Assembly (NCBI RefSeq): GCF_004010195.1
Contig: NC_057758.1
Coordinates: 3,540,269-3,604,268, forward strand
Reading direction: 5' to 3'
DNA from: Chiloscyllium plagiosum
Taxonomy: Eukaryota
Length of the DNA: 64,000 nucleotides
The notes beneath the pieces are model-generated. The model searched no databases, had not been told where the DNA came from, and saw only the letters and a list, made by a program, of their open reading frames with translations. Below, piece by piece: positions 4,562-58,332 of the stretch; position 1 is the first letter of the stretch, and each line of letters opens with the position of its first letter. The translations under genes were made by a program, and so were the position numbers.

Positions 4562-4913
4562 ACACAATGTGCCCTGTTGTTTGATAATTGCAGCGGTTTG
4601 TGCGCATTTATGTTGATCTCGGATAGTGCAAGTGAATATGGACTTTCTTCAGCATTAAACAGCATCTGGTTCTGTATTTGACCAAGAGTTTCTCCCTGTC
4701 TCTCACTGTCAGATTCATGAATGCATAGCACTGTGGGATTCTGTTGCTGGACATGCACTGATCGCAAGATTGATTCTGTCTCTGAATCATACTCTCTGTT
4801 AGTGTGTATTATGTAGTTCAGATTCTCCTCTCATGTACGCGAGTTTGACATTCACTCAGCACTCAGGTCACTCTTATTGTTGTGGTTCTGTTCGCCGAAC
4901 TGGAAGTTTTTGT

Positions 4914-4953
4914 TGCAAACGTTTCGTCCCCTGGCTAGGCGACATCATCAGTG
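4914..4953 (-). ncRNA. Hammerhead motif, family B pLTR (core intact, stem I shortened by a 4-nt deletion)
   Basis: Reverse complement reads CA-CTGATGA-T-GTCGCCT AGCC AGGGGAC-GAAAC-GTT-TGC. Confidence 0.6.
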
Positions 4954-5605
4954 GGAGCCTCCTGCGAAGCGCTTCTTTGATGTTTCCTCCGGTGTTTATA
5001 GTGGTCTGTCCCTGCCGCTTCCGGTTGTCAGTTTCAGCTGTCCGCTGTAGTGGTTGGTATATTGGGTCCAGGTCGATGTGTTTGTTGATGGAGTTTGTGG
5101 ATGAATGCCATGCCTCTAGGAATTCCATGGCTGTTCTCTGTCTGGCTTGCCCTATGATAGTAGTGTTGTCCCAGTCGAATTCACGTTGCTTGTTGTCTGC
5201 GTGTGTGGCTACTAAGGATAGTTGGTCGTGTCGTTTCGTGGCTAGTTGATGTTCATGTATGCGTATTGTTAGTTGTCTTCCTGTTTGTCCTATATAGTGT
5301 TTTTTGTAGTCCTTGCATGGTATTTTGTACACTACATTCGTTTTGCTCATGTTGGGTATCGGGTCCTTCGTTCTGGTGAGTTGTTGTCTGAGCGTGGCTG
5401 TTGGTTTGTGTGCCGTTATGAGTCCTAGGGGTCGCAGTAGTCTGGCTGTCAGTTCTGAGATGCTCCTGATGTATGGTAGTGTGGCTAGTCCTTTTGGTTG
5501 TGGTATGTCCTCGTTCCGTGGTCTTTCTCTTAGGCATCTGTTGATGAAGTTGCGCTATAAACACCGGAGGAAACATCAAAGAAGCGCTTCGCGGGAGGCT
5601 CCCAA

Positions 5606-5645
5606 GCACTAATGATGTCGCCTAGCCAGGGGACGAAACGTTTGC
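5606..5645 (+). ncRNA. Hammerhead motif with G5A core change (predicted inactive)
   Basis: CTAATGA at 5609-5615 in place of CTGATGA. Rest is identical to 7834-7873. Confidence 0.6.
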
Positions 5646-7210
5646 AACAAAAACTTCCAGCTCGGCGAACAGAACCACAACAACGAGCACCCGAGCTACA
5701 AATCTTCGCACAAACCTTGAACACTTACGGGCGAGAGACGCTGAGACAAGCCAGGAAATAGGAATCCTGCACTAACCCACTAAGCGCCACATACGAACAA
5801 CTCCGGTTCCTACACGAATGCCGAAAGAATCGAATCCTTTCACAATGTGTCAGATACAGACCGCCAGTCAACAACCCACAAGCCAGGGAAACAGCCAAGC
5901 ATAACGGATGATCCAGGTAATGATCACAGACGCGCACAACCGACTCCACAAATACAAACAAGAAATTGCGCGCCAAAAGTCGTTAATTTCAAAAACCACT
6001 AATCGTGAATGGACCCGGACCATAGAACAGGCTGTCACCATAGGACAGAACAGGACAACGCACCGCAAAAAAACGGCACTAAAAGAAAAAATGGCCAAAC
6101 TAACACACAACAAAGAGGACACTACAACACACACCTGGGTTAAAAACCTCTCCCACAGACAGCTCACAGACACGGAAAGAACAATACTGGCCAAGGGACT
6201 CAACTACAACCACAGGGATGCCAAGACAGCAGACTTCCTAGCAGCACTAGAAGGCACACTCAGGAACAATGGACTGACAGAAGAGACACAACAAACAGTG
6301 AGACAAAGTATCGTAACCCTGATAACAAGGAAAAGACAAACACATAACCTCAAAACCAAGGAGAGGGAAGCACTGAAATCACTAAGAAACGATAAGAACA
6401 TAATCATACTACCAACAGACAAAGGCAGAATGACGGTCATCCTGGACAAAGCAGAGTACATCCAAAAAGCACAACAACTACTTGCAGATACCAACACCTA
6501 CCAAAAGAGGGAGTTTGACCCCACCCCACAGCTCACCAATAGGATAAACAACACACTGAGTCATCCTAAAGATAACAGCGCTGACATGCACAACACCTGC
6601 AATGCACCACTTTAATACGTGCCTGGATTATGTCGTATGTGCTCATTGGAGGGGGACTCAAAGCCACAATCGTCTGACTCCGGATGTGGAAATGCTGGCA
6701 ACTGAGTTACATCATACCAAGGGAGCCCTGGACCTGTCTGAGTGAGAGGGAAATGGCTGCAGAGCTCAATATGAGGGGAAGTAATATGGAGGCTAGAATT
6801 TGAAGAGGTCAAGTAAATTGTGTCATACACGATATTAATGTGTCGGAGACTGCAAGGAGGAAGAGTTAATATCAATGCAGGGAGAGCATGGAGGAGAAAC
6901 ATAAAAGAAAAACTAATAAGTTCAAGGCTGAAAGCTGAATCTGAGCTCAAGGATATTAGAGTCATAGAGTTATACAGCATAGAAACAGACCCTTCGGTCT
7001 AACTCGTCCATATAATATAGAACCTAGAACAGTACAGCCAATGATGTTGCACCGAACACAATGCCAAATTAAACTAATTCCCTCTGCCTGCCCTTGGTCC
7101 ATATCCCTCCATTCCTTGCATATTCATGTGCCGATGTAAAAGTTTCTTAAATGCCCTATCTGCCTCCACCACCACCTCTAACAGTGCATTCCAGACTCCT
7201 ACCACTCTCT

Positions 7211-12830: not shown

Positions 12831-13934
12831 AAGTGAAGACAAAGATGATGTGCTTTCAGAGGGTACTGATCTGTGAGATGTCCTTCTTCTCTCCCTCATC
12901 ATCTCAGATCCCGACGCCATCTTATTGCATCCCTATCGCCGAAATATTTCCTATCACTCTGTCTTGATCCAACTTCAGACCCCACTGTGAAATGTTATTT
13001 CACACAAGCGTTCAGACATGAATGGAAGAAACCAGAGTCATTACGACGGTATAGTAATGTACAGTCCTCGAGCTGACATTTGCTGAACTACATCCGAGGA
13101 TATCCGTAACAAAATAGATCACACTGAGGTTCTCTCTATATATCTGTGCTGTTGATTTTCTTTTCACACTTTATGAATTTCTCTCTCCTCCCTCATTAAT
13201 GTCGCTGTCGCTGTTTCTATCTTGAACGCCGTTAGTTTTATTCCCTCACCTATGTCACACAATATATATTTCACTCTCTCTGTAAAGTCTTCATTCAAAC
13301 ACTTTTTCACTCTCATTGCCCAATCTCTGTTTCTCCAATTCTTTTTCCATGTATCTCTCTTTCATTACTCTTTGCTCCTGTTTTTTTCCTCTTGAACCCC
13401 TTCATCTTCTTTCACTTTCCCCCATTAATCATTCTCTCACGCACACTTCTCTCTTCATTCTCTGCTCTGCATTACACTCTAACACATTTATCTCCTTTCT
13501 CTTTGCCACTCTATTCTCTATACCTGTATTTCCCTTTCTAACCCGTTTATTTTCCTTCTGCATACCTCATATTATTCTCTCTAACGAGAATGGTGGATGG
13601 ACAGGAAATATTCAATGGCAAGGCAGTAAAATGACACAAACCCACGATTGCATTATTTTAGGGTAGGATAGAGTTGAAGTTTTGAGGCAATAATACAAAG
13701 CAGTGGGATAGAAATAAAAGTTTCTTGCTGTTTTTGGATGTAAGGCAAGAATCATCATCTAAATATCTAACAATGCTCTGAAACATATCAAGGCTAAAAT
13801 GAAGGAACAACGCCTTAAACTTCTGGACATGTGTGGATATCAGGTGAGGATGGCAGAATTGCTCACCAAAGGGCAGCATTGAGTCAAGTTCTTTTTTTTC
13901 CAACTATCTGGGAATGATGATCTCTGTGGAGTTA

Positions 13935-15315
13935 TCTCACCCAAAGCCAACTCTGTTCTGCGAGCAATGCCCGGTCACACTACCCCCTCTAATCCTCTGG
14001 GAATGGACCTTTGGCCTACCACATAATTAGTCCAATATCAATGGCCTCCTACTCCACCCCATCTCACTTGACATAGCAACAGTCAGTTGTCCCACAAACA
14101 TTGTTCCCCCAGCAACGGTCTGTAACCCTACCCCTCTACTCCCACAGCAGCATAATAGTCACATACAAAATCTGTTCCCTCAGACTTGGCCTGTGTAGCA
14201 TCTGTACTCTGTTCCTTATCAATGATCAATGGTTCCACTCCCTTACTTTCCCCAAGGAAACGTCAGTAGTCCACCCGAAACGGTTCTCAGGCTATATACC
14301 TACAGACCCTTCCGATTCTGCTTAACGAGCAACAGACTGTGGCCTATTCTCAACCATTTACCAAGCAGAGGCTTGCAGCACGACAGCCTGTACAGTCGGC
14401 TCTCATTCCACCCACACTTCCTCCTTCAGAAAGGATCGTGGCAATGCACACACACTGTTCCAAAGCAAAGCCATTTGAAACCACCTGACCCACCTTTCTC
14501 ATAGCATCAGTGTGTGACCCCGCAAACACAGTGTTCCCCTGGACACCGAAGGAGGCTTAAACGACTACTGTTTCGCCTAACAAACACCCTCTCTGTTCCC
14601 TGAGCAAAGGCTTGCTGCAATGTTACCACGCTGCTCCCCCAGCAACTGACTGCATTCTCACACTCACTCTCGTCCCCTAGCAACGGACTGTGGACCTACC
14701 CAAAACCTGTTCTGGAAACATCAGTCAGTGATTCTGCATCTAATCTTCTCATGGCAAAGACTGCTGGATCCATCACCTTTCTATTCCTCTTGTGGTCATA
14801 TACCCATTTCGATTGCCGAAGAACTAGCAATTGTTGCATCGCTACTCTGATCCCACGTGAACACCCAACGTCATCAGCTCCCTCTGTTATCCTTTCCAAT
14901 GCTTATGCTCTCACTACCTTGCTTTCCTGTCAGCAGTGGCCTGAGAATCTGTACCTAATCTGTTCCATTAACAAAGGCCTGTGACCCATTCCTCATTCTA
15001 TTCACCCAGCAATCGTCTGTCCACCTTTCCCCAACCCTTTCTACAAGCAATAGCCTTTGTGCACATAGCCACTCTGCCCCCCAGCAAAGGACAGTGGTCG
15101 AACACCAATTATTTTCCCCTGGCAACGGAATGTGGGCCCATCCCACATTCTTCCAAAGACAACATCCGTCAGCCCCATCACCACACTGTTTCTCTGACAA
15201 GGGTTCATGATCCTACACCTGCTTTTCTTTCCCTAATGATTGGCTGCTGGACCACCACTGCACTGTTGCATTAACAACCGGCTTTGTCCACTTCCACATA
15301 ATTTTCTCCAGCAAC
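13935..15315 (-). repeat. Cryptic ~38-bp period array of X-box-like cores, copy A
   Basis: Reverse complement of 59003-60790, lacking a 400-bp block. Confidence 0.8.
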
Positions 15316-15936
15316 AGAAGCTAAGAGGGAGTTGGAGGTGGACAGAATTTGAAAGAGAGAGAATGGAGGAGGTACAGGGAGAGCAAGACGAAGAGACAGT
15401 GAAGGAGAATGGGGGAGGGAGATACAGTGAAAAGCAATTACAAAATAGGAGGTGCAGAGAGTACAAATGAGAGAAATTGTGAGAATGGGAGAAAGAGATG
15501 AATGGAGAGGAACAGAGAGAAAGTTGAATTCTGCTGAGGCCAGGACGGGGTGATCAACACAGAAGTGAAAGCAAGGACAGAATGATTAAACAGAATTATT
15601 GTGTCCCATCCGGTTCCATCCCCTTCTCGGATGACAAGGACATGGGTAAAAATCTCCAGCTTAGTTTCTTCAAAGCAAAGACAAACTCTTCTGCTTGACA
15701 CTTTTTAATGATCTTTTTAATCAGTTACGAGTTGAAGTTATGGATACAGTCAGGTGAGAGCAGTGCCTTGTCAGGCTGGCCCCTGAGTTGAGAGAAACGC
15801 TGAGATATACCCCTGTAATCACTTGTCAGAGGATAAGGATGGACAAACCAGTACTGTCCTCATTCTATTACCATATTGACAAGCTGCTTAACTGCTGAAA
15901 CATTGAATTGAAATATGAAAATCCTGAATTGATTGA

Positions 15937-16844
15937 TTAATGAGTGAATTGGATTGATTTATGAATTTGGATAAAGGGATACTTCAGCACATTCTTCAAC
16001 TGCTGTCTGAACTTTTTCTGGGTCACAGCATATATCGCTGTGTTTGTGCAGCAACTGAGGAGCTGCAGCATGAAGCCTAATTCCTTCACAAATGGATAGA
16101 CATACACAGACCTATACCCGAAATACCACATCCGGTTCCATATAGAATACACCATTAGCATTGACCATAACAAGATGAAATTGCCCGAGATCACAAACAG
16201 CAAAATTATGGATCTTTATCGATTTTGCATTTCTGTGTCACACTGACCGTCCCCATTTGTGTGAGCACGCAGTCTCTTGCGGGCTCTGCTGGTCACTAAA
16301 ATGTGTCTAACGGTGAAAATATTGAGAAGTACAATCAGGAGAAATGGAAGAGCCGGGTTTAGGACGTGATGGAGGAACTCGATTGAAGTCCAGACACGAG
16401 AGGATTGAACACTGCTTATTACGTGACAAAACCAGGGGATGTTACTCATATTATATGTCCCTGCCAGCATGAAATACCAGAAAATGTTCTTTAAGCAGCT
16501 CAGCACAGTCACTGTTCCAAGAACCAAAGCCGCCGTTTGCTCACTGCAGTATTTACCTTTCAGGTTCTGGCAACAAATGGCTACAAACCGATCAAAGGTG
16601 AAAGTGACTGTGAATCAGACAGAACAGTCAGTTGCTGCATAAAACAGGACGGCGTGGATATTACACACTTGGATGTTCCACAGGAAAATAAACACTTCCC
16701 AATAAACAAAGGGAATGTGTCTCAATATCAGATCGAGGATAATTACCAGTAGATCCGCCACTGCCATGGCCCCCAGGTAACGACTGACACAGGGAGACAA
16801 TCCACAATCTTTATGATGCAGTATGAAGATTGTCGCTCTGGTAA
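15937..16844 (-). pseudogene. GPR139/GPR142-like class A GPCR exon 2, pseudogene (copy A)
   Basis: TM motifs MAVADL, DRFVAICC, NTAIY. In-frame stops at 16615-16617 and 16216-16218. Acceptor AG changed to GG at 16845-16846. Confidence 0.9.
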
Positions 16845-17899
16845 CCGTAAGGAAGGTAAACAAAGAAAATATGCATCATCTTGGAGGTAAAATTGTCAGT
16901 TTTATTGTGGACAGGGCCAGATTTCAAATGGCTCACTGTATTTAAAGATCTATTGAAATTACTGGAGCTGTAATAACACAGCGCAATGTCTGAATTACTT
17001 TAGAAATGTGACGTAAATACAAGAATTCCTCCTTTCCCAAACATGGAAACGAACATTCATAAGAACATTCATAAAGTTTCTAAGACACTGTCACACACTC
17101 GATCACTTGTAAGTAAACAAAGGTTATTTCTTTACATTTCCTGACAGGAAAAGTGAAAATCATTCTTAATGGTTCTGAACGGTTCAACCAGTTCCTTACA
17201 GACAAACGGAAGTTGGAAATTCCTGTCTTTCAGTCTAAGTTGTGGTGGTCATTCTGTCCTGAAGAAACGCAAACACAAACAAAAAAGTTCACTCCTTTAA
17301 CTGCCTGAATGTACTTCGAAACAATGTGTCCTCCTCCCTGCAACGTGATGTCTTTCTTGAGAATCATGTCTTTTGGTCAATTCACTGACTTTTGGCCAGT
17401 GACTAATACCATCAGTTGAAGAACGCTCCATAGATTGCTCCACTCCTTTTTCTGTCCAACTGTTCTTCTCTCTCTTTGGGATTTCTCCCCAATTATCGTT
17501 TACGTTTGACCCCTTGGTTCTGGAAAAATAAATGACATTTTCCGCCGATAATCAGTTCACAAGTCAGGGCACCAGACTGCATGGCTACTTCATAGAGCGT
17601 CTAAATTCGACCCGCAAAAGTGAACCAGAGGTTCCAGCTGTCTTACACATGCACACACGAACCTATTCGCTGTCCATGATCTTTCACAGGCTTAGTCCAG
17701 TGCTTCAGCGAAGCTCACCATCATTTGGAAAAGAAATACCTCATATTCTGAGAAGAGACTTTGCAACACTCTGGACTCAATATCGAGTTCAATTTCACAA
17801 ATAAGACTAATTGAAAGACAGGTGTCAGAGGGGTCCACTTGACTCGGGGCGGAGCTGAATGCGAGAGAGCAGAGAGCAATCTAGAAAGATATGTGAAAT

Positions 17900-18720
17900 A
17901 AAATCTTACCTCGTGGATTTTTGTTCAATCCATATGCGTAGCACACTCTTTGCAAAACAATTGCGCCTCAGTTTCCATTTTACTCTTTCCACTCTAACCT
18001 TAAACCTATGCCTGCTCACCCTCGGTTCCCAATGCTGTGAAAAATGATGAGTGCATTCAGTCAATCCATGCCCCTCATGACCTGATACACTTCTATGAGG
18101 ACCTCACACAGTCTACAACAAAATATGGAAAAATGTCAGAGTTTATCCAAACTCTGTCTACAAATGAGAGCATTGAGTTCTGGCAACATTATTGCAAATT
18201 TCTTCTGCACTCTTTCCAGTTTAATACTATCCTTTCGACAGCAAGGTGGCCCAAGCTGAACACTTATACTCCGAGTTCGGCCTCATTAACGTCTTTTTTT
18301 AGTTCTAACATAATTGTGCAACTTCTGTACTCAGTGCCCTGATCGATGAAGGCCAGTGTACCAAAGGCCGTCCTCACTACCCTGCCGATCTGTGACTCCA
18401 CTTTAAGTGAACCTGAACTCCATGGTCCCACTATTCTGGTACACTCTTTCAGGTCCGAACATTGACCATAAAATTCCTACCTTTATTTGAGGTGCCAAAA
18501 CACAACACCTCACACTTATCTACATGAAACTGCATTTTGCATTACTCGGCCCACTTCCCCAGCTGATCAAGATCCTGCTGTAATTTCTGATAACCATCCG
18601 AACCTTCTATGGTATCATCTACTTCAGTTTCATCAGCAATTTACGAATCATGCCTTGTCCATCCTCATTCAAATCATGGATGTCGATAAGAAACTTGAAT
18701 GTGTGACATGAGAATGCGGT
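17900..18720 (-). mobile_element. CR1 LINE ORF2 fragment (duplicated at ~55470-56260, +)
   Basis: LERVQKKF..MLP and LIEVY..M.G.D motifs. Confidence 0.8.
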
Positions 18721-19400
18721 AGGAATAGGTACCAAACAGCAATCAGAAACTCGAAATAAATCATCCTTGATCAGTTTGACAGAACATTTCATGTCGAGTC
18801 ACACAGGAAGCAGTACAGGGTGTTCAGCTGTTTGGAATCGGTATCAATGATTTAGCACAAATGCACTGTAACTATGTTAGGCGATGACGTTAAGGTAAAC
18901 AGACATGACGTTAAGGTAAACATCATTCAGAGAAGGTGCAGAGTGTCCAAATGAATACTTGGAGGTGAAAACAACGGGTGAAAGTTTGGAAGATCGAATA
19001 TAACATGACATATCCCATGTCATTTTATTTTCAGGACGAATGCGAGGCAGTATGTGAGTGAAAGGGAGAGAGATGGCAGCATTCGTGATACAGTGTGAAC
19101 TGAAAGATTCACTCTTACCCGTCAGACTTCGGAAGTTTTGCTAAATCTGATGGACTGCTCTGTCATGTTCTCAGTTGTCCCATTTCTCTCAGTGGCAAGT
19201 GATGAGCAGGGGGGTGTTTCAAGCCCCGTATTAAGGAGATGACGTCAATCTGAAAGGCCATTTTTCCTTGCACGTGAAGACATGAAGCCGTTGTGAATGG
19301 CTGACTGCTTCTAAATGAAGAGGCTCTGGCTGTTTTTCGGACTGTGGGTATTCACCAACACGACGTGCCATGCATGGGCACATTGCAACATTAGATTCTT

Positions 19401-19666
19401 TTAGATTAGATTAGATTAGATTAGATTCTCTACAGCGTGGAAACATGCCCTTCGTCCCAACAAGTCCACACTGACCACACCCCCCCCCCCCCCCTCCAAG
19501 AGTCACCCACCTAGACCCATTTCCCTCTGACTGAAGCAACTAACACTATGGACAATTTAGCATGGCCAATTGACCTGACCTGCACATCTTTGGACTGTGG
19601 GAGAAAACCGGAGCTGGAATCGAACCTGGGATCCTCGTGCTTTGAGACAGCAGTGATAATCACTGA
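19401..19666 (-). mobile_element. HE1-type SINE with internal deletion (paralog of 54444-54770)
   Basis: (TTAGA)n tail and SINE body; about 65 bp missing at ~19613 relative to copy B. Confidence 0.85.
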
Positions 19667-20996
19667 GAGCTCCTTCAGTCCTCCTACTTCTCCGCGATGA
19701 CATGTGGACCACGTAGTTCCATGTATATGATCGTGAGTACCGCTATACTGGGAAAACAAGCATACACTGGGTAGCTCCCTGCTGAGAGAGAACGCATTGT
19801 ATTCCCCTAATCCGCAATATATATCCTCCTACATTGATGTAAGCATCATGGGAGATGATTGATATGTTACCCATACGTGCCAGGCCATTTCCGGATATTC
19901 GAAGCTGAATGAAACTGTGACTCTCGCACCATCCTCCCCCTGGTGTGAAGCTGCTAGTTGTGTTGCAGGAGGTGACACCGCTCTGTGACCAGCTCCTTGA
20001 TAAATCAGGGTTCCCTCACACACTGCTCCTGGGTTAAGCGTAGGTTGGGAAGGTGTTCTTGGAAATCCTTGGATGGATACATCAAATTACTTCCCTATCT
20101 CACCCACACTCCAAAACGCACGCACACACACACACACACGCACACACCTGTGGTCATTGCATTTTCAGATTTCAGTAGGGCGTTCAACAGAGTTCGTCGT
20201 GGTAGACTGTTAAGTACAGTAACATTGGATTGAAGGTCGTAGTCAGAGAGTGTGGTGAAGGCCTACGTTTTGTGACCAGTGGTGCGCCAGAATAATTCGT
20301 TTAATGTTCATCTTTTGTGATTTATATGAATAAGTCGGAAAGGAATATAGGAAGTCGATCGTTAGTGAGTTTGCAAATAACACCATAAGTGATGGTTTAA
20401 GGGGCAGAGATGAATGGTATCTCCGAGTCCGGTGAGGCCTTAAGTAACTGGGCGGCAAGGACGGCATTCCCCTTTTTGCAGTTTCCCTCAGTCAATTCGA
20501 ACAATTATTAGAGAAACAGAGACTTTCAGGGTGAAGGCGATTCAAGTTCGACGTCCAGAATGGATTTGGAGTGCTGGCATCTCATTACGGTTTATTATTG
20601 TTGTTTAACGTTGTAGAGGGCAAGACTATCAGCTGAAGGAGGGTGTTAGGTGGGAACTAGCTGGAAGATTCCTTTAACATATCTCCCAATATGACAGAGC
20701 CTCCCCGCAGGTGGTAATAGATGCATGTGACTGCACAAAGTGACTCTGTGAGGCTAACACTGTTTAAACTACAATTTCTGAATGATTCTGCTTGATTTTT
20801 TTTCGGTGACCTTCCCTCCTTCCGGTCGAATGGATGGCAAAAACTAGGGCATGGACAACAGGCAATATAACGAATGTTTTTGATACAATTCAGAAAGCAG
20901 CAGGTCAAGTGTTATTGGATCCATATAATTGAACGCAGTCGATTTACAGAAATAAGTTGGTCGGTCTCACGGTTGTCACTTGGGATTTATTTTGCT

Positions 20997-21121
20997 TCAC
21001 GTCAATTTCCACTTGCAGCAGTGTCCTCCGACGACACACATGCCCATTATCGGGATTTCATGCCGAAGACAAGGGGATCGCTTGCAGATTCCATTCTCAA
21101 ATGCACAGTCTTTGAAGAAAC
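20997..21121 (-). CDS. Beta-defensin mature-peptide exon (exon 2)
   Basis: Strong acceptor ttcctttctctttttcag, phase 1. Reads (G)FFKDCAFENGICKRSPCLRHEIPIMGMCVVGGHCCKWKLT*, i.e. C-x6-C-x4-C-x10-C-x5-CC. AATAAA a few nt after the stop. Confidence 0.85.
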
Positions 21122-21841
21122 CTGAAAAAGAGAAAGGAATATTTCAGTGATGTCCCCAGCCAAACAATTAACTCTCAGTTTGTCACAAAATCAAGAATTA
21201 TGACGGCCAGAACTTTATCCAGTGAAGCTAGAGTGATTCAATCGAGGAGGTGCACACCAGAACTTTGCATAGTATTCTCAGTGTGGCCTTACCTAGGGGT
21301 TTAAAGATGATAACCGCACCCAGTGCTCTCAGTGCTGTCTTATCTCGGGACATTGAGACTAGAACTGTCTACTTGCTACCTATGTGATCACCGAGAGAGG
21401 ACGGTGCCCTGTCGTGCAACTGTTACCGAACTGAGAGATGTGGAGTCCAGAACCATTTACAGTGTGATCATACAAAGGGAGATTGAGACCATCTCTATGT
21501 ACACTGACCAATGTGGAGAGTAACTAAGGGATATTTGGACAAGAACCTACCCAAGGGTGGACTAAGTAAGGTACACAGAGGTCGGAAATGAGCACAGTGC
21601 TCTCAAAATCGAGTAACTGAGAGATAAGATGCGTAGGAAGCTTCACAGAGGTCTTACCGAGGGATATCAAGGCCATCCCTACATTATGCCAAGTAGCGTC
21701 TACCTAGAAATTGTGCAAAGTGCTCCCATTGTGACTTAACCAATTGATGTGCAAAATAACTTTGTGAACAGTGTTTTCTTTCATACAGGAAGCAAAGAAA
21801 AATACAGAAGGATATACACACGAGCAGGCTACAAGACCCCT

Positions 21842-22085
21842 TTAGATTAGACTCACGCTATTGTGGAAACAGGCCCTTCGGCCCAACAAGTCCACACCGA
21901 CCGGCCAAAGAGTAACCCATCCAGACCTACTTCCCACTGACTAATGCACCTCGCACTAGCATGGCCTGTCCACTTGACCTGCACAACTTTGTACAGCGGG
22001 AGGAAACCGGAGGAGCCCCAGAGGATGGAATCGAACTTCGGACGCTGATGCTGTGAGGGATCAGTACTAACTGTTGAACCACCAC
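21842..22085 (-). mobile_element. HE1-type SINE, internally deleted
   Basis: TTAGATTAG tail followed by GGAAACAGGCCCTTCGGCCCAACAAGTCC. Confidence 0.8.
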
Positions 22086-22578
22086 GTATGTAAAGTATTT
22101 TATTTAAAGGACAGTTTTCGAGAATACACTCTGTTTGTACGGAGTGAATTCCACAACTCGGGACTAATGCAGCTGAACAAAATGCAAACAATGGCTCACT
22201 GTCGAATCTCTGAGAATTCATCAGAATTAGAATGGTATGGGCATCCAGAAGCGTTATCGGGAATGGAGGATATTGCAGAGATTGAGAGCAGCTGGTCAAA
22301 GAGAGATTTGAAAGCATGTCCCTTTTAAACGTGGAAACGAAGATGCTGAGAACAGCATTTTGGTGAATTGTTTTTGATGGTCGATAATCAGTAAGTTAAA
22401 TTAAACTGTTCTTCGAAAATTTTCCAAAATGGGATGATAACCTTTCATTCAAAACAGGTGGAGTTGGGAAACCGGGCTGATTGAAACAAGGCAAACAATG
22501 AGTCAAATTCATTTGCAAAACAGCACACGCTTGAGGGGCTGGTTTTGCTCCAGTCCGTTTTCAAATAAATGTGCTAAC

Positions 22579-22670
22579 CAGTAAAGAAAAACCCTGGTCT
22601 TGGTTGACCATCCGCAGTGATTGGCTCGACAACCACCAAGGACGGTTTGCAGCAAAACCAATAATTTCAT
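22579..22670 (-). pseudogene. Putative beta-defensin signal-peptide exon 1 with a frameshift
   Basis: ATG MKLLVLLQTV, then +1 frame LVVVEPITADGQPRPGFFFT G|GTTAG. The 92-nt length is out of phase with exon 2. Confidence 0.55.
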
Positions 22671-23279
22671 CTTTCTCTATGGAGTCTTTCAGAGTCACGA
22701 TTAACTGACTGACTGTAACAGCGAGGTACTTTATCACAAATGAGACGCTGTTCTGTGGTTAATAACCAGAAATCAACGTTGAGGATTGGATCCACGTTGT
22801 GTTCATTATTAAGACATTTCACAAGCTAACATCAAATGTAACTGGAATCAAAGATTAAGCGTTTCTGTTAATCAGTTATTTCTCAGTGAACAGAGAGACC
22901 TAACTGTATAATTGTTGATATCATGAAGGTTCACAGGAAACGCTCAAACTGGGCAACTAGGTCTCGATTATTAGCTAAGAAAACCGGTTGGTCCATCATT
23001 CCTGCGCTGGCTGTTTTCAGTTCTCCCACAAAGCGCTCGCAGTGACACACTGGACCGAATGGTTGAACCTTTTCTTATTTTTTAATGCATTATTCGTTTC
23101 ACATTGATGAACCTTACTCCTGCTCCAAGTTACTGCTGCTCTTGGTGAGGAAACTGTTGCTGATGAGTAGCACGTAAGTTCTGAAATTTTTTATCGGATT
23201 ATGCAGCAGCAGCATTGTCAATTTAATGTTAACAGAATGTGATATTTTCCGGATTAATTAAGTTAAATGGGACCATCTT

Positions 23280-26200
23280 GCAGGACAAATCCAAATTGTA
23301 AACTGCTTCTCTTGCTTGATGTGGGAACACGGAGAAATGTTTAAGAGTCGGAGAGTATCGTGAACGGCATGGACAGAGACGTGGTCACACCACAGACTCA
23401 GACGCAATAAGGTAGGGCAGGATGGCTAATCAGGAAATGCAGGAATCCTCTGTGGATGTTCTCCTGCAAAAGAGACATACCATTTTGGAAAACAGCAGCA
23501 TCCACATTCCTGCAAACATGGTTGGCTTTGCTGCGGAGGAAGTGAGAAATACGAATAGAAAAGATATATTTATAGGGAATTCACTTGTAAAGGGAATTAG
23601 TAGGTGATTTATGGTAGGTTCTATCCCTGTCGCGCGAATGCCAGAAGTCTCTGAGCGGTTGCAGGACATCCCACAAGGGGAACGCGAACGGCCAGTGCTT
23701 GTGGTATATGTTCGTGCTAACAACATAGGTTAAAAAATGGAGGAGGTGTGAAAAGCAAAATATCGAGAACTGGGACGGAATTTGAAATGTAGGAGCTAAA
23801 AGATGGTTTTCTCAGGATTACTACCAGTGCGACGTGATGGTCCTAGCAGAAACAGCAGGACATCTATGAATACCACGTGTTTGAGAAGTTAGTATCGTGG
23901 ATAGAGACCAGTTCTGGGTCAGGTGTGACCTAGATAAACTAGATTATTTACACCTTAGTAGGACTGGGACAGATGTCCTCATTAAGGAAGAGGCTGGTAT
24001 GTATTGCTTGTTAGATTGGTTGTGGAGCGCGCAGTCCATTGTGGCAGAGGAATGGCAACCTGAGGAGTAGGGCAGTACATGCAGAAGTTAACGAGAGTTA
24101 GAAATCATGGCAGACACGAGAAAGAGCAATAACTCGCAGGGAAACGCTGCTCTAAAGAGCAGGAGTGCTTTTTTTAGGAAATGCACGTTTGTCAATATGA
24201 GAAATATAACAGGCACTTATGGATTTAGTGAGAACTTGTACTATGACATGATGGCGATTACACATTTATTGTGATTTATTTGTTGAAAGAGGGACAGGAC
24301 TAGTAGCTGGATGTCCCAGGATTGGGATATTTCAGGGGCCATAGCAAGAGAAGTATTTGGTGATTTACATCATTGTTGAAGGAATACCCCATAACTACAT
24401 GGGATAACTGAGAGACGGTACAGCATAGTACTCGTGCAGCGAGTCAAACTGTGTTGAGGTCAGGCACGGGAAAGGTGGAATTACAATGCTTGTGATGAAC
24501 AGCAGGCCTCGCAAATTCCAGCGTGAGAGATATGAGAGAATATATGGACAGTGTTTGGGAAGATGTAATAAAAAAAGAGGTTGTGTTGAGTGATTTGCAC
24601 TTGCTAAATTAACGTGGATTCAAAACATGCTTGGGGCCTGCATTAGGCATAATTTGTCAGGATAATTCAGGAGGCTTTCTTTGCACAATTTGTAAACATT
24701 CCAGCCAGGGAGGGCGGCATACTGCATCTGGTATTTGGAAATTAGCCTGGCCAGGTGAATGAAATTTCATTGCTGGAGCGTTTGGGAGCAGTGACCACAA
24801 TACCACAATACCGTAAGGTTTTGTAACAGAAATTAGGCCATTTAGTAAATCGAGTCAGCTCTACCACTAAAACAACACTGAAAAGTTTCTCATACCCATT
24901 CTCCTGCTTTCTTTTCCTAACCCTGGATTCCCTTGATAATCAAGAACCTATTTATCTCTACTAAAATGTATTAAATGAGCTAGCCCGCACAGCGTTCTTT
25001 GGCAGTGAGTTCCACAGATTCACCACTCTCTGGCTGAGGTTCGTTCTCCTTATCTCCGTCTAAAACGTCTTCGCTTTACTCTAATGCTGTTACCACTGGT
25101 CGTCGTCTCTCCTACCAATGTTTCCCACAGCCACTTTGTCCAGACCATTCAGTTTTCTTACGTTTTGAGATACCGTGAATTTTAAGATCCGCGCAGATGG
25201 GGATAAGAACAGTGCTCATGTGACGGTGTGAAACTGGGGAAAGGTGAACTAAAACAATATTTGGCAGAAAATGGAGAAGTTTGATTGGAACCGGATGTTT
25301 GAGGGGAAATCCATATATGAGACTTGCGAGTATTTCAACAAGCATGCGCTAAAAATTCAGTAGCAGCAAATTCCTGATAGAATCAGGTGTCCTGAGAAAT
25401 TATTAGGAAATAGAATTAAGGGGATTCCTGAGTCTGTTTAAAAATGCATATTTTATACATTTATAAAATGAAATAAGGTAACGAGGAAAAGCATTGATCC
25501 TCTCAAGGACAAAAGAGGGAATCCCAGTATGGAGCTCCGGGCGATACATTGACTGAGTATTTAGCACTGCGGACTCACATCGCCTAGGACCTGGGTTCGA
25601 TTGGAGCCTCTGGTGACTGTATGATTTTGCAAATTCTCCCCTTGTCTGCGTGGGTTTACTCCGGATTCCTTCCACAATCTAAAGATGTGCACTTTTCCTG
25701 AAATAGCCATACAAATCTGCCCATTGTCTTCAGGGATGTAGGGTATCATTTTTGGCGGGTTGGTGTGGTCTTGTAGGGCTGATGGGCCTGTTTGCACGCT
25801 CCAAAGTTTCTATGATTCTGAAACGTCCGTGAGGCCTGAAATGAATACCTTGTGTCAGTATTCACTAAAGAGAATGAATCGGTGGAGAATGATCTCAGGT
25901 AACAGAGTGTCAAATCTTTTCGGCAAGCTTCTATAAAAAGGAAGAGATTTTAAAAATCTTCAAAGATATTAAGGATAGATAGTTCCCCCGCTCTTGATTG
26001 GATTTTTTCAAGAATATCGTGGGTGGCAAAATGCCAAATTTCTGGAGTATTCATAGACATCTTTGTATCCTCTTTGAACACAGACGAGGTCCCAGAGGTC
26101 TGCAAAATAGCCAATGCTGCTCCATTATTTAAGAAGGATCACTGAGATAATCCTGGAAATTACAGGCCTGTGCATTTCATGTCAGTGGTTGGGATATTTT

Positions 26201-27060
26201 TGGAAAAGATTCTTCGGGACAAGATCCATATGCATTTAAAATCAAAAGGTCTTATAAGCTATCGACAGCAAGGATTACTGCGGGGATGGTCCTTCCTCAC
26301 TAAATTGACCGAGTGTTTTGGGGAGATGATGAAGATGAATGATGACAGGAAAGCGATTGATGTTATCTACATGGAATTCAGTAAAGCCTTCGACAATACC
26401 CCCCATGGCATTCTGGTACAAAAAGTAAATTTACATAGTATTAGGAGAAACCCAGCTGTATGTATAGAGAACTTGCTAAGTCCTAGGAGGCAGAGAATAA
26501 GGGTGGAAAAAATGCTTCTCATAATGGAGCGATTTGACTAGCGGTGTTCAACAGGGATCAGTGGTGGGTCCCCTGCTGTTTGTGATCTCCATTAATCATT
26601 CGGAGGATAACGTGGCTGGTCTAATTAATAAGCTTCCAAATGGTACATAGATTGCTGAAGTTGTGGATGGATTTCACGGGAATGCAGGAGGTTGAGGGGC
26701 GATCTGTGAGAAGTTGCAAGATTGTGAATTGGAAAGTTATGCAAATTATGAAGCTTTATCAAAGGTTCGATGGTACAATTTTTAGTGGACACAAGTTCAA
26801 CGTGCGGGGAAGGGGAGATTGTAGGTGCTGATGTTTAAAAGAGATGGGCGAGGCATTTTTTTTTCTAACTAAAGATGGTGAATGCCTCCAACATACAGCC
26901 AGAGGAGATAGTTAAAGCAGACACAATAGAAGAAGCACCAGGACGAATGCATGAGTCTGAAGGGAATAGAGGGGTATTCATCCTGTAAGTGAACACAGCT
27001 TTAATATGGAAGAGTATCACGTGGAGGCAAATGTTTGAATGTTTGCACGGCTTGTTCCTG
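23280..27060 (+). mobile_element. Degenerate near full-length CR1 LINE (ORF1, endonuclease, RT) with nested minus CR1 3' end (~24825-25150) and SINE (~25555-25820)
   Basis: FIGNSLVKG (ORF1), LFKK..NPGNYRPV, and DVIYMEFSKAFDNTPHG in ORF 26170-26541. Confidence 0.8.
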
Positions 27061-27804: not shown

Positions 27805-28285
27805 AGTCACTTTTGATTGATTGATATATTTGGGGATAATTTAGGACAATCTTCAGCTGCTGCCTGAACGTAGCCTGAGTCACAGCATATATTGCAGTTT
27901 CTGTTCAGCAGCTGAAGACCTGCAGCATGAAGTGCAAATCCTGCACAATGTAAAGTAGGTACATCGATTGACAACTTTAGCCAAGCATCCGGTATCATAC
28001 AAAATTCAGTGTAATATTGACAATGACAGGTTAAACTTGTCCAAGATCACAAACAGTAAAATGAAGTTTTTTTTCTTGAAATTACATTTCAGTTTCTTTC
28101 TGACTCTCGCCGTTGCTATGGGACCAGAGTCTCCTAAGGGATTTGCTGCTCATTAAAATGTCTCTGATGTTTAAAAAATGGAACAATGTGAAGCGTAATA
28201 ATGAGAAATGCAGCATTTGGGTTTGAATTTGGTACAGAATATTAATTGTTACCTGAGAGAAATTCACACCGACTGTTCCATCGCA
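27805..28285 (-). pseudogene. GPR139-like GPCR fragment (TM5-TM7), old pseudogene (copy D)
   Basis: Reverse complement reads FMLQVFSC*TETAIYAVTQATFRQQLKIVLNYP, homologous to copy A. The 3' flank also resembles 15330-15930. Confidence 0.8.
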
Positions 28286-29352
28286 AATTAAGACAGTTTG
28301 TGAAATTGAATGAACTCATTTCTGAAATCCAGGTCTTTGACATCTAACACGATAACACTCTCCCATATACCATTCTTTCAGAGTCTTTCCAGTCATTTAC
28401 CCAGTCACGACTGATGCACTTTTAAGCAAATCTGATTGAGCCAACTTCTCAATCGACCATACTGCACATGATACTCAATGTCTGCAAACGAAGCCAATTG
28501 CAAAACAGAACCGCACAGGAAAGGAGTTCTAGTTTTCTATGTGAGCCACGAGCGCGCTGACAAGGGAGAATTAAAATTGAAACTACACAGATCACACACG
28601 AGCGATATTTCTACTGACATCTCGTTAAATTTGAATATTATCACGGTTAACGTTTTTGCAAATGTCAGCATATTCTTGGTGCCATTTCTTCTAAATGATT
28701 TACATAAATAATCTCAATGCAGATGAAGTTAACTTAGAAACTATGAAAACTGCAACAACCTGAATAAAATGGTATTTATTAGAATCTTGCTGCCCAAGGA
28801 TGGATACTTCACTGTTTCTCTGATTCATCTCTTCGCAAATGTTGCCAGACATGTCGATTTTCTCCAGTATTTCCTTTATTTATAATGTAACCAAGTATAC
28901 TGCTGTACAAATTAGGAATAGTGAGAGAGGCCAATTTGAATGAATACATTACCGCAATTGTAAAAAATGTGCGAGGCCGAACACGTGAGGTGGAACATCG
29001 ATGGAACGTGACTGTTTTCTCCACACGACATTCGTTGTCTGAAAAGAGTCCTGCCAGATTTCACATCGACGAGCTCTCTCCCATAACGTGCCCACACCAT
29101 AGAATATTCAGATCCCGTTGCTGACAGAATTGTCAATACCTGTGAACATTCTGTAACGCCAGTTCCGATTAAAATTAATCTTGATTGATTATTTCAAATG
29201 GACGTCTTCCATTTCAGTGGATGAAATTGAATTCTTTGTATTTAATATGGATGCTTAAATTCATAAACATCAGGTTATATTAGGTCTATGACTGCAACAT
29301 GTGCTGTATTTAATGGACTAGGTTGTCTTTACTCAACAACAATAATAGGTGT

Positions 29353-29980: not shown

Positions 29981-30840
29981 TCATTTTTTCAGCTCTACTC
30001 TGAATTTGCTCTGTGTCGCTGCATAAATACAAGGCTTCAGAAAGCAACTGAAAAGCTTCAAGATATCTCCCACTTCAATGGCGATAAATTCAGGGTTGGT
30101 GAACTTGACTCGATAATTAACCATGTTTGTTAATTTGGTAACACCTAAAGTCACGGCATTTGTCAACCAGAGCAAGAGAAAACTTACTGATATTGAGAAT
30201 AATAAAATGATGGACTTTCTGCGGTTCTCCAATTCTGAGTCACTATGATTCCCACTCTTGGAGCTCCGCAGTACAGTGCGGGTTCTATTTGCCAGTACAA
30301 TGCGTTGGACAGTTAATGTATTACATAAGGTAATCAAAGTGAATGGAATCCAAGTGACACAGGCGCTGTAAAACCAGACATAACCTATACCTGCAGAAGA
30401 GGAAAAAAATGCTGCACTTGACTGACAGCCCCACTGCATGTTGGTAATAATTTTCTTAGGTTCATAAGCAAAAAAAAACGGAATTTCCTTCAATACGATC
30501 ACAACTGTGATGAATATTACGAGAGCGATTGCAATCCTTTCGGTGCAATATTTTTTTTGAAAGTTTTGGCAACAAACCACAACAAATCGATCAAGTGTGA
30601 ATGAAACAAGGCACCAAACAGATACATCGGGTGTGACAGCGGTCAAATATATAATGACTCTGTAAACATGAGTATGCGACAGAAATGACAAAGGGAAGTG
30701 ATAACTACAGATGTGATAGAATACGACATTGTTGATCAGGACTAATAGGTCTGTTGTTGCTATGGCCATCATGTAAACAGTGATACATTTAGAAAGACCA
30801 CATTTCCTTTGTGAAAGAATCCAAATTGTGGCCAAGTTCG
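29981..30840 (-). CDS. GPR139/GPR142-like GPCR exon 2 (copy C, divergent paralog, possibly a pseudogene)
   Basis: Acceptor ttttcctgtcttatag then (A)NLATIWIL; CGLSKCIT.YM, LDRFVVVCC, RRKSIILLF, KPCIY. ORF is continuous. Confidence 0.85.
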
Positions 30841-31697
30841 CTATAAGACAGGAAAAAAAAACAATGCATAATGCATCAGTGCCTGATTCAAATGAAACAT
30901 GATCATGTCAGTCTATGTTATGTACTTAACAATATACAAGAAATATTTTGTCACCTAGCACAGGGATCATTCTCTGAGGGATAACAAGGCAGTCCAAGTA
31001 TACATGGAATCATTAAGGAGCCTTAATATCATGCCATAAAGATGAAGCAAAACCAGTGACTAAAATGCAAGGTAGACAAACCAGTTCTCCAAGTTAGTTA
31101 TTCTGCAATGGTGGCACGAAAAAATTTGTTCACTTGATGAATTATGCGAATTAGCTAGAAGAGTGATGATAGGGATAAATACAGATAGATTACAATGACC
31201 TACAAAGTCCTCTAGTGGAGCAATGGCAGTAGTTGTTACTCTGGAGTGAGAAACACTGAATCAAGTCCCCCCACTCGCCGCTTCAGACGTTTCAAAATCA
31301 TCTTCGAAAAAGTTCATCAGGAAAAAATTGTTTAAAAATGGAATCCACTCACCCGGAATGGCTACAGATGCAAGTAGCGGGTAATAAATTTCTTTCACGA
31401 GCAGAATTGCAGGCTTCTCCATTTTTGATGACAGTTAATGATATCTGCAGAAGCTGGAACACTTTGAATACCCACTGCAGAATCAGTAGAAGGGATTCTG
31501 TATTTATGCATACATTAATTCCTCGGGGAATCAATCAGTTACAGTAATCACACGCATTTAATAAAGAGAATCAGGGAAGATTGTTTTTGCTGAAACATGA
31601 GATTGAAAGAAACAAGAACTGCAAAGTGGAGAAAATTCTACTATATACCTACTGAAGTAACATCAGGAGTACTTCTCGTGTAACCTGTGGATAATGT

Positions 31698-35270: not shown

Positions 35271-36939
35271 CAAAGAGCTGAGGCTCCCTGGAGTACTCTG
35301 TGACGATACTCTCATTTTAACAAGGTAATTTTGTCCTTGGTTCTTTTTGTAAATGAGACATCGTACACACAGAGGTACTGAAGAGTCGAGGAAGAGCCCA
35401 GCCTAGCCATGGCAGGGGAGTTCAGGTTGATTTTAGTATGGTTTAGCTGGATTGGACATGATCTACTGGATTCCAGGATAAGTTGCAGTGTCCAGGAAAT
35501 GTTTCATGTCTAATGTTCTCTATGAAACATATTTGAACGTTGTTCCTTCCTGCGTGCAAAAAATTGTTTTAGAATTTACTTTTTTTGCCAATAGGTGTGC
35601 TTCTGGGATGAGAATTGGATTGGAACAGTTCATTGGTTATGACTTTGTCGGGTCAGCTAAGATTTGAAAAAGCTAAAGTTTTTTCTAAATTCCGTTTTCT
35701 TTTGGTTGTGTCTCAACTGTAGCGCTTAAATAGATTCCGTCTTGAGTTATGCCGAGTCGTTTGAGTAGCTGCACCACACCTGGAATATGCACTTCACATC
35801 TGCCAATAAAATGCAAAAACATTAGCGTCGAGGTAACTTTTGTAACATATTTTTGCGGGTGTCTGGCCTGGTCCATAAAGCTCTTTCTTTTCTCCCAAAT
35901 CGACTCTACAGTCTTGTTGCACATTCGTATGCAATTTTAGAATGTTTAACTCGTGCCTGTTTACTCTTTCAGTCCTGATCTTCCCTTTTTCCAGGCAAAG
36001 TTTTACCTTGACTTAAGTCAAAGTTGTTTTCTCTATTCACTACTTTCAATGCCGTGCCCCCTACACGAAGGCACTGAAACGCAGAACATGCTATTGTTTC
36101 TTTGAACAACTACTTGGTAGACATGACCATTTTACCCGCTATTGCAACGCACCACCGTATTTTCCGGTGATCATTCCTGTCTCAGGCTTGCTGCAGTGAA
36201 ACTCAGCGCAATATGGAAAATCAGTACATCTTTTTTTGATTGGGAATATTGCAGCTTAATATCGCACTCACTAACTTTTCTGATCGAACATCTTCCCCAA
36301 CGATTTTCGCCAACCTCACACACGAGGCCTCGTCGCCCCATGGCCTGCTACCATAAAATAGCCATTTTCAGCCATTAGTAGGCCACATTGTGCTGATGCT
36401 GTCGCTGTAATTGTTTCCTTTGTCATAGCGTCTTTTCACAGAGGGGGTGAAAGATTTTCACACCTGGCCACTGAAGAGCACTTGAAGACACAGTCTGTGA
36501 AGCTTTGAGCTTATTTTTAAAATTTGGAACAATGTAGCAACTTTTTCAGTGTAGATTTAGTCGGACGCTGTTGGGCTTTTAAAACATTTACAAACTTTAG
36601 TGAATGTCTCTTAGCTGCTTCGTTGACTACGTTTTCATGTGTTTTTTTGTCCATCCTGGAATGGATTGTTGCATTTTACATTCTGTGGCTGAAATTTCCT
36701 TTATTTGCCAAGGGATGCGTTCACAGAATGGTTATATCTTGGAAGAATTTTAAATGAAACGTTATTTATGCATGGACTACCGAAGAAAGCATGAACAAAA
36801 GAGAACACCCCTACTTCCCACCCGATTGACTCTATCACAAAATAATGACGCTGTTCGAAAAAAAACTTGCAAATCCCCATAAACACCGATTTGGCAAAAA
36901 AAAGCGGTAAAATAAAACACAGGTTTTACCAAATAGATG

Positions 36940-37483
36940 TATAAGACTCTGGTGCGGCCGCATCTGGAATATTGTGTGCAGTTTTGGTCGCCATACTATA
37001 GGAAGGATGTGGAGGCACTGGAACGGGTGCAGAGGAGGTTTACCAGGATGTTGCCTGGTATGGAAGGAAGATCGTATGAGGAAAGACTGAGACACTTGGG
37101 GCTGTTTTCATTAGAGAAAAGAAGGTTTAGGGGTGACTTGATTGAGGTGTACAAGATGATTAGGGGGTTAGATAGGGTTGACAGTGTGAACCTTTTCCCG
37201 CGTATGGAGTCGGGTATTACAAGGGGGCATAGTTTTAAATTAAGTGGGGGTAGATATAGGACTGAAGTTAGGGGTAGGTTCTTCACTCAGCGAGTCGTAA
37301 GTTCATGGAATGCCCTGCCAGTAGCAGTGGTGGACTCTCCCTCTTTATGGGCATTTAAGCGGGCATTGGATAGGTATATGGAGGATAGTGGGTTAGTATA
37401 GGTTAGGTGGGCTTGGATCGGCGCAACATCGAGGGCCAAAGGGCCTGTACTGCGCTGTATTCTTCTATGTTCTATGTTCTATG
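36940..37483 (+). mobile_element. Young 5'-truncated HER1/CR1 LINE with 6-bp TSD
   Basis: Intact ORF 36937-37401 (YKTLVRPHLEYCVQFWSP), (TTCTATG)n tail, TAGATG at 36934-36939 and 37484-37489. Confidence 0.92.
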
Positions 37484-53296: not shown

Positions 53297-53726
53297 TAAT
53301 ATCATTTATTGTGCATCCACTAATATCATTTATTGTATCCGTTGCTCCCGATGCGGTCTCCTCTACATTGGGGAGACTGGGCGCCTCCTAGCAGAGCGCT
53401 TTATGGAACATCTGCGAGACACCCGCACCAATCAACCACACCGCCCCGTGGCCCAACATTTCAACTCCCCCTCCCACTCTGCCGAGGACATGGAGGTCCT
53501 GGGCCTCCTTCACCGCCGCTCCCTCACCACCAGACGCCTGGAGGAAGAACGACTCATCTTCCACCTCGGAACACTTCAACCCCAGGGCCTCAACGTGGAA
53601 TTCAGCAGCTTCCTCATTTCCCCTTCCCCCACCTCATCCTAGTTTCAACCTTCCAGCTCAGCACTGCCCCCATGACTTGTCCGGACTTGTCCGACCTGCC
53701 TAGCTCCTTTTCCACCTATCCACTCC
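53297..53726 (+). mobile_element. Penelope family A GIY-YIG fragment, absent from copy A
   Basis: NIIYCIRCSRCGLLYIGETGRLLAERFMEH...PVAQHFN. Confidence 0.9.
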
Positions 53727-58268: not shown

Positions 58269-58332
58269 TCAATCAATTCAGGATTTTCATATTTCAATTC
58301 AATGTTTCAGCAGTTAAGCAGCTTGTCAATAT

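What the first reader, a model, noticed from the sequence alone, without database searches (positions are those of the whole stretch)
20997..21121. Hidden intact beta-defensin exon, too short for the ORF track
Seen: a strong polypyrimidine acceptor followed by a phase-1 frame FFKDCAFENGICKRSPCLRHEIPIMGMCVVGGHCCKWKLT*, then AATAAA. Established: vertebrate beta-defensins have C-x6-C-x3-5-C-x8-10-C-x5-6-CC with GxC motifs, encoded in an exon after a phase-1 intron. Inference: this is an elasmobranch antimicrobial peptide gene that annotation could easily miss, lying inside a GPCR cluster.
Basis: partly seen in the sequence, partly recalled or inferred. Interest (0 to 1): 0.82.

Follow-up and report, generated by a model that had tools for sequence, protein, structure and literature searches.

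The report
Broken copy of expressed shark defensin
The flagged exon is real and encodes a six-cysteine peptide of the beta-defensin type in a shark, but as assembled this gene copy has a frameshift in its first exon and is likely dead, while close sister copies are spliced and extremely abundant in one public sequencing run, likely as messenger RNA.

Summary
The exon is real: six cysteines spaced 6-4-10-5-0 behind a top-ranked phase-1 acceptor. Its only Pfam match is Defensin_beta (18 bits, under the cut-off of 21). The neighbouring GPCR points to a carpet shark. I found the missing exon 1 (ATG 22670, donor 22578); a public contig joins it to 21121 across a GT-AG intron. As assembled, exon 1 is one base too long (92 nt, phase 2), so this copy gives a 38-residue product without the cysteine motif. 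In run X3, contigs on the two exons reach 10^4-10^5 depth against about 10-40 in the intron. They are paralogs, at least some with an in-frame exon 1; this copy's own exon 2 stays at background. Another 4-6 copies carry an exon-2 frameshift. Verdict: a likely pseudogene of a multi-copy, likely expressed, two-exon shark beta-defensin family. The frameshift is not independently confirmed. Eight targeted paper searches showed no shark defensin. This scan noted the family five times before in this genome; four of those notes call expression untested. Fold, disulfides and activity are untested.

The parts
20997..21121 (-). Exon 2 coding part: phase-1 start, six-Cys beta-defensin-type peptide, TGA stop at 20999-20997. 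Open and intact.
21122..22578 (-). Intron, 1457 nt, GT..AG, with a strong polypyrimidine tract just before the AG
   Evidence: predicted; a contig of run X3 skips exactly 1457 nt with matching ends (table 5)
22579..22670 (-). Exon 1 coding part (signal peptide plus short pro-segment). 92 nt from ATG to donor, phase 2: one base too long for the phase-1 acceptor.
   Evidence: one of only 2 M-K/R-aliphatic starts in the 64 kb; high depth in X3
22637..22641 (-). Site of the extra base. The hydrophobic signal reading changes frame here; paralog contigs are one base shorter.
   Evidence: 1-nt deletion at 22637 in X2 record 6; X3 loose end at 22646 compared by eye; frames
20986..20991 (-). AATAAA 5 nt after the stop; likely not the sole poly(A) signal of the family
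   Evidence: X3 depth stays high into 20801-20900
20801..20996 (-). Approximate 3' untranslated region, judged from paralog depth (100-nt bins)
   Evidence: table 2: X3 depth 10,553 and 24,201 in these bins, 12.3 in the next bin down
22730..22735 (-). GATAAA, a weak TATA-like hexamer 60 nt upstream of the ATG (function not shown)
21842..22025 (.). High-copy SINE-like repeat inside the intron
   Evidence: matches other window copies at 69-77%; depth in the millions; the SINE label is recalled

Best explanation
This is a two-exon gene copy for a six-cysteine beta-defensin-type peptide in a shark, and as assembled its first exon is one base out of frame with the second, so it is likely a silent pseudogene of a multi-copy family whose in-frame sister copies are spliced and likely highly expressed. 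Shown: both exons, the GT-AG phase-1 junction in a family member, the frameshift in the window, paralogs at about 92% identity, and background depth on this copy's exon 2. Inferred: a working paralog makes a precursor of about 71 residues (signal peptide, short pro-segment, six-Cys mature peptide). It would be secreted, fold with 1-5, 2-4, 3-6 disulfides, and act as a moderately cationic host-defence peptide that attacks microbial membranes or attracts immune cells, as other vertebrate beta-defensins do. The family likely evolves by duplication and decay, and this copy would be one of the decayed ones.
For: Frameshift: ATG to donor is 92 nt, phase 2; the spliced product as assembled is 38 residues, stops at 21099 and lacks the motif; the only other ATG in the 220 nt upstream of the donor is in phase 0. 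Paralogs lack the extra base: X2 record 6 has a 1-nt deletion at 22637, and 2 X3 contigs leave the window at 22646 with letters one base shorter that keep the hydrophobic frame. Expression of the family: X3 depth is 140,367 on the exon-2 bin and 18,518 on the exon-1 bin, against 1.5-36 in ten non-repeat intron bins; one contig carries the joint 21118-22576; 4 contigs have loose ends at 21122 that match the end of exon 1 at 27 of 30 letters. Silence of this copy: X3 record 9 (824 nt, 2 differences) runs unbroken from 20501 to 21210 across exon 2 at depth 10.7, like upstream record 16 (8.77). X2 record 2 (13) and X4 record 20 (33.7) also equal their flanks. X5 has no reads on either exon among 12.96 million records. 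Decay around it: a paralog class at 3.9-6.3 times this copy's depth has a 1-nt insertion at 21100 in 3 of 3 contig runs; 2 of the 4 longer GPCR pieces in the window carry stops. Identity; phase-1 intron position as in PMC7203481.
Against: No listed contig carries the window's own haplotype across the frameshift. At sites such as 21345, 21354, 22359-22403 and 22869, all laid depth in all three contig runs has another letter, so the extra base is not confirmed and could be an assembly error or a private haplotype. Exon 2 has no lesion, and its acceptor is among the best in the window. The library kind of X2-X4 is not on record, so 'RNA' for X3 is inferred from the depth pattern and the joint, from one study. 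Only 4 runs (one read at about 2 in 100) were laid, so silence in other tissues is not shown. The Pfam score is below the gathering cut-off, atlas scores (0.79-0.83) are leads only, and no significant homolog was found.
Confidence: 0.65

Rival explanations
1. This copy is a working gene. The extra base is a sequencing or assembly error, a chimera between paralogs, or a private allele, and the gene is expressed in a tissue or stage that was not sampled.
For: Exon 2, both splice sites and the start are intact. The extra base lies at adjacent doubled letters, where long-read errors are common (general knowledge). The window haplotype from about 21345 to 22869 is not seen in 3 of 3 contig runs, while both flanks are, with 0-3 differences.
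Against: This copy's exon 2 is at background in all three contig runs, including the one where paralogs are over 1000-fold higher. Other broken copies and broken GPCR genes are common here. The tool warns that a filter makes holes.
Confidence: 0.25
2. The copy is rescued by another first exon or a near-cognate start, giving the six-Cys peptide with a different or no leader.
For: TTG at 22639 and GTG at 22636 are open to the donor in the defensin frame.
Against: Those starts leave only about four hydrophobic residues and lie behind a normal ATG. No in-frame signal-like phase-1 exon passed my filter anywhere upstream in the window, and no phase-repairing micro-exon was found in the intron. No other joint to 21121 was listed within 20501-23500.
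Confidence: 0.04
3. The family has the beta-defensin gene plan, but its working members are mainly not antimicrobial: they serve as receptor ligands, enzyme inhibitors or reproductive-tract coat peptides. This can hold together with the best explanation.
For: The net charge is modest (6 K/R against 3 D/E, pI 8.66). The nearest solved sequence is helianthamide (E 0.23, not significant; recalled as an amylase inhibitor with this fold). Very high depth in 1 of 4 runs suggests narrow tissue use. Mammalian beta-defensins act through chemokine receptors (PMC8231796 passage).
Against: Nothing here tests a target. GPCR adjacency alone is weak evidence. Teleost beta-defensins are antibacterial (PMC6795676 section 14).
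Confidence: 0.2
4. A chance cysteine pattern in non-coding DNA.
For: No significant sequence homolog. The loose motif appears in 3 of 300 simulated windows.
Against: Spliced contigs join the two exons at the predicted sites, and depth is enriched about 10^4-fold on exactly these exons.
Confidence: 0.01

Closest known systems
Mammalian-type two-exon beta-defensin genes (Pfam PF00711 Defensin_beta)
   Same: Spacing within C-X4-8-C-X3-5-C-X9-13-C-X4-7-C-C (PMC515299). One exon for signal and pro-sequence and one for the whole six-Cys peptide. Phase-1 intron just 5' of the Cys region (PMC7203481). Multi-copy.
   Different: The Pfam score of 18-18.4 bits is under the cut-off of 21. No significant sequence match. 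It lies among GPR139-like receptor genes. This copy is frameshifted.
Teleost beta-defensins (e.g. sea bass beta-defensin 1 and 2)
   Same: Six conserved Cys, leader exon first, mature region of about 40 residues (PMC8231796).
   Different: Teleost genes have three exons, with exon 1 of 55-58 bp in sea bass. Here the coding part has two exons, exon 1 is about 91 nt (30 codons, with a pro-segment), and exon 2 includes the stop. The CPRR(Y/L/F)K motif of teleost type 2 is absent.
Big defensins (amphioxus, molluscs, horseshoe crab)
   Same: Beta-defensin-like Cys array at the C-terminus and the same phase-1 intron position (PMC7203481).
   Different: No hydrophobic globular N-terminal domain: exon 1 holds only about 30 codons, most of them the signal peptide.
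Helianthamide (PDB 4x0n_B)
   Same: Best solved-sequence match, over residues 10-39.
   Different: E 0.23, not significant. A sea anemone enzyme inhibitor (recalled); a lead only.

Membership tests
Vertebrate beta-defensin | Six Cys spaced C-X4-8-C-X3-5-C-X9-13-C-X4-7-C-C | tested here: met
   6-4-10-5-0 against the consensus in PMC515299
Vertebrate beta-defensin | Match to Pfam Defensin_beta at the gathering score | tested here: inconclusive
   Sole hit of 24,736 models, profile positions 4-36 of 36, E 0.002-0.003, 18-18.4 bits against a cut-off of 21
Vertebrate beta-defensin | Phase-1 intron at the 5' end of the Cys-rich coding region | tested here: met
   Acceptor at 21122 in phase 1; spliced joint in X3; criterion from PMC7203481
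Vertebrate beta-defensin | In-frame signal peptide on the preceding exon (this copy) | tested here: not met
   92 nt, phase 2; the product is 38 residues without the motif. This lowers 'working gene', not 'derived from the family'.
Vertebrate beta-defensin | In-frame signal peptide on the preceding exon (paralogs) | tested here: inconclusive
   Paralog contigs are one base shorter at the site and keep a hydrophobic frame, but only short pieces were seen and no signal-peptide predictor was available
Vertebrate beta-defensin | Three-stranded beta-sheet fold | tested here: inconclusive
   Single-sequence model, pLDDT 47; fold searches on it gave nothing meaningful
Vertebrate beta-defensin | Disulfide pairing Cys1-5, Cys2-4, Cys3-6 | not testable with these tools
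   Needs peptide disulfide mapping
Vertebrate beta-defensin | Cationic mature peptide with antimicrobial or chemotactic activity | not testable with these tools
   Computed charge about +2.9 at pH 7 and pI 8.66; activity needs an assay
Big defensin | Hydrophobic globular N-terminal domain before the Cys domain | tested here: not met
   Only about 30 codons precede the intron, and the spliced joint links them directly to exon 2
Alpha-defensin | C-X1-C-X3-4-C-X9-C-X6-10-C-C | tested here: not met
   First spacing is 6, not 1
Teleost-type three-exon beta-defensin | Mature peptide split between exons 2 and 3 | tested here: not met
   All six Cys and the stop lie in one exon; compare PMC8231796

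The most novel reading that the evidence does not exclude
Sharks carry an undescribed, very highly expressed, two-exon beta-defensin family, which pushes the vertebrate family back to the root of jawed vertebrates, and it has co-expanded in the same chromosomal arrays as hundreds of orphan GPR139-like receptors because the peptides are their ligands: a linked peptide-receptor array under birth-and-death evolution. The first half (an expressed, unreported shark family) I put near 0.6. The ligand link rests on adjacency only and sets the probability given here.
Probability: 0.07. Interest if true: 0.8.

Novelty: new member of a known kind. Interest (0 to 1): 0.45.

Why it matters
Passages I read give the range of beta-defensins as teleost fish to mammals (PMC7203481), and a review section on fish antimicrobial peptides names no defensin for sharks (PMC6795676). 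A spliced, abundant shark family would extend the range to cartilaginous fishes. It would also test the proposal that the two-exon plan is ancestral and that fish and birds gained introns later (PMC8231796); the structure seen here fits that proposal. It offers new natural host-defence peptides that the protein databases searched lack. The flagged copy itself is likely dead, so synthesis and assay should go to the expressed paralogs. It also shows that an intact-looking exon is not an intact gene.

Tried and rejected
No whole genome is held for this window, so copy numbers come only from contig depths. Homolog searches with the 41-residue frame found nothing at near or longer lengths. The 1.84-billion-protein search gave 2 Cys-rich repeat proteins without the motif, which I rejected. 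Solved-structure sequence search: 4 weak rows, best E 0.23. The single-sequence AlphaFold model was poor (pLDDT 47), so the empty fold searches say nothing. The run search listed no RNA holder. The first scan for an in-frame signal exon found none; exon 1 was then found by reading the sequence. No second defensin copy lies in the window. The exon-1 frames match no Pfam family, and the as-assembled frame gives only low, unnamed atlas hits. A complex prediction with a GPCR was not run, because adjacency alone does not justify it. One paper sought by DOI was not held. One search (five terms) returned 0 papers. Look-ups of earlier findings by words, sequence, nearness and relatives were empty.

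Full report
Observation. An AG at 21123-21122 follows a tract with 16 pyrimidines in 17 bases, a level reached by 3 of 4070 minus-strand AGs. The exon starts at 21121 in phase 1, encodes 40 whole codons and ends in TGA at 20999-20997. The cysteines are spaced 6-4-10-5-0, inside the published beta-defensin consensus (PMC515299, Background section read). It is the only such motif in the window. Simulated windows gave 0 of 300 matches for the strict spacing and 3 of 300 for the looser consensus.

Family evidence. Pfam Defensin_beta is the only hit among 24,736 models (E 0.002-0.003), but at 18-18.4 bits it is below the cut-off of 21. The three best atlas clusters are beta-defensins, at 0.79-0.83, which the tool rates as a lead. 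No real homolog was found in the large protein collections or among solved structures. The structure model was too poor to use. The 40-residue peptide is moderately cationic (6 K/R, 3 D/E, pI 8.66).

Host and neighbourhood. A search with the GPCR at 57330-58265 listed 120 hits; the 119 with a name are all from sharks, mostly 'probable G-protein coupled receptor 139', with the highest identities (up to 78-80%) in zebra shark and whale shark. A carpet shark is therefore likely; I did not establish the species. GPCR pieces lie at 15940-16845 (two stops), 27812-28285 (several stops), 29984-30838 and 57360-58265 (open over the aligned part), with a short duplicate at 58322. The stretch 13583-20323 is duplicated in inverted form at 53728-61147 at 85-94% identity, and it ends before the defensin gene, which has no second copy in the window.

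The missing exon. A scan for an in-frame signal exon found none. Reading upstream showed an ATG at 22670 that opens with Met-Lys and an aliphatic run, one of only 2 such starts in 64 kb. After ten codons the hydrophobic reading moves to another frame, which stays open to a GT donor at 22578. ATG to donor is 92 nt, phase 2, while the acceptor needs phase 1. Spliced as assembled, the copy gives 38 residues, stops at 21099 and has no six-Cys motif. No other in-frame ATG and no phase-repairing micro-exon was found.

Public runs. The run search listed 16 runs, 4 of which hold the stretch, all from one study and with library kind not on record. I laid 4 of the 16 on 20501-23500: X2, X3 and X4 (contigs, three samples) and X5 (single-cell RNA raw reads, about 2 in 100 read). 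In X3 one contig skips exactly 1457 nt with GT-AG ends, which confirms the predicted donor and acceptor for a family member. Four more contigs leave exon 2 at 21122 with letters matching the end of exon 1 at 27 of 30 places. Summed depth in X3 is 140,367 on the exon-2 bin and 18,518 on the exon-1 bin, against 1.5-36 in the ten intron bins outside the repeat. X2 and X4 show 95 and 235 on the same exon-2 bin. I infer that X3 holds messenger RNA over a genomic background. The tool warns that summed contig depth is a poor measure of expression, so only the order of magnitude counts.

Which copy is expressed. Not this one, by inference from contig structure. X3 record 9 matches the window with 2 differences and runs unbroken from 20501 to 21210 through exon 2 at depth 10.7, like the upstream record 16 at 8.77. 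If this copy's exon were in the abundant transcript, the contig would break at the exon edge or have a far higher mean. X2 and X4 show the same for their near-identical contigs (13 and 33.7, equal to flanks), and X5 has no reads on either exon. Paralog exon-1 pieces are one base shorter where the window changes frame: X2 record 6 has a deletion at 22637, and two X3 contigs leave the window at 22646 with letters that keep an unbroken hydrophobic frame. The table does not give the depth of those two contigs, so their link to the abundant transcript is inferred. A third class, about 92% alike and at 3.9-6.3 times this copy's depth, has a one-base insertion at 21100 that would break exon 2; it appears in 3 of 3 contig runs. 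So three kinds of copy are visible: this one (exon 1 broken), a multi-copy class (exon 2 broken), and in-frame spliced copies.

Results against this reading. The frameshift is not independently confirmed. At listed sites from 21345 to 22869 the laid contigs mostly carry other letters, while both flanks match the window with 0-3 differences; 102 further difference rows and most contig records were not shown. This may be a filter hole, a converted or private haplotype, or an assembly chimera. Exon 2 and both splice sites are undamaged. Only four runs were examined. High X3 depth extends into 20801-20900, past the AATAAA at 20991, so that signal is likely not the only one used.

Mechanism. Shown: gene plan, splicing in a family member, frameshift in the window, several paralogs. 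Inferred from known beta-defensins: an in-frame copy makes a precursor of about 71 residues that is secreted, trimmed and folded with 1-5, 2-4, 3-6 disulfides (pairing as given in PMC7203481), and acts on microbial membranes or as a chemoattractant. This copy most likely makes nothing useful (0.65). A working gene hidden by an error or allele is the main rival (0.25).

What is in print. Eight searches paired defensin with shark terms (8 to 30 papers each, seen as listings and abstract starts), and no listed title or abstract start describes a shark defensin. A five-term search on origins returned nothing. I read passages in PMC6795676 (also its section 14), PMC10707392, PMC6780625, PMC13337447 and PMC12734493; none reports one. 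Passages of PMC7203481 and PMC4364288 give teleosts as the most distant vertebrates named. Passages of PMC8231796 and PMC515299 give two exons for mammals, three for teleosts and four for chicken, and the former calls two exons ancestral. Subscription journals and supplements were not seen, so an earlier report is possible.

Earlier notes of this scan. Five notes on the same genome describe other beta-defensin copies, a large and partly decayed family, and four of them call expression untested. These are unchecked AI notes; I had reached my reading before seeing them. My data agree on multiple, partly broken copies; I could not test their counts or the 'bamboo shark' label.

Verdict. A real exon of a likely pseudogene, in a likely expressed shark beta-defensin family that I could not find in print. 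New member of a known kind; interest 0.45.

Noticed in passing
window 13583-20323 and 53728-61147: Inverted segmental duplication in four pieces at 85-94% identity, each arm with a GPR139-like gene; the 15940-16845 copy has two stops, the 57360-58265 copy is open over the aligned part.
   Followed up: partly
window 21345-22869: The window's own haplotype was not seen in the listed contigs of three runs, though both flanks match almost perfectly; possible gene-conversion tract, structural polymorphism, assembly chimera or filter hole.
   Followed up: partly
window 21100 (paralogs): A paralog class at about 4-6 times this copy's depth carries a one-base insertion in exon 2 in 3 of 3 contig runs: a broken copy that was likely duplicated after it broke.
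   Followed up: partly
window 22801-22900: Depth of 751 in 7 contigs (X2) and 420 in 9 contigs (X4) at 22869, far above single-copy depth: the region upstream of exon 1 is shared by many more loci than match the exons at 90%.
   Followed up: no
window 22580-22610 (paralog loose end at 21122): The spliced paralogs differ from the window by 3 of 30 letters at the end of exon 1, adding a second arginine in the pro-segment; a possible processing site (my reading).
   Followed up: no
window 58322-58540: Short tandem duplicate of part of the GPCR coding sequence directly behind the 57330-58268 gene.
   Followed up: no
window 29984-30907 and 27812-28315: A more distant GPCR subtype (32-37% identity to the other two) that is open, and a decayed GPCR fragment, lie 5-8 kb upstream of the defensin on the same strand.
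   Followed up: partly
window 4874-6615, 26146-26541, 36937-37401, 48631-49065, 53205-53642: Frames that look like fragments of LINE or Penelope-type retroelements (labels recalled, not searched).
   Followed up: no
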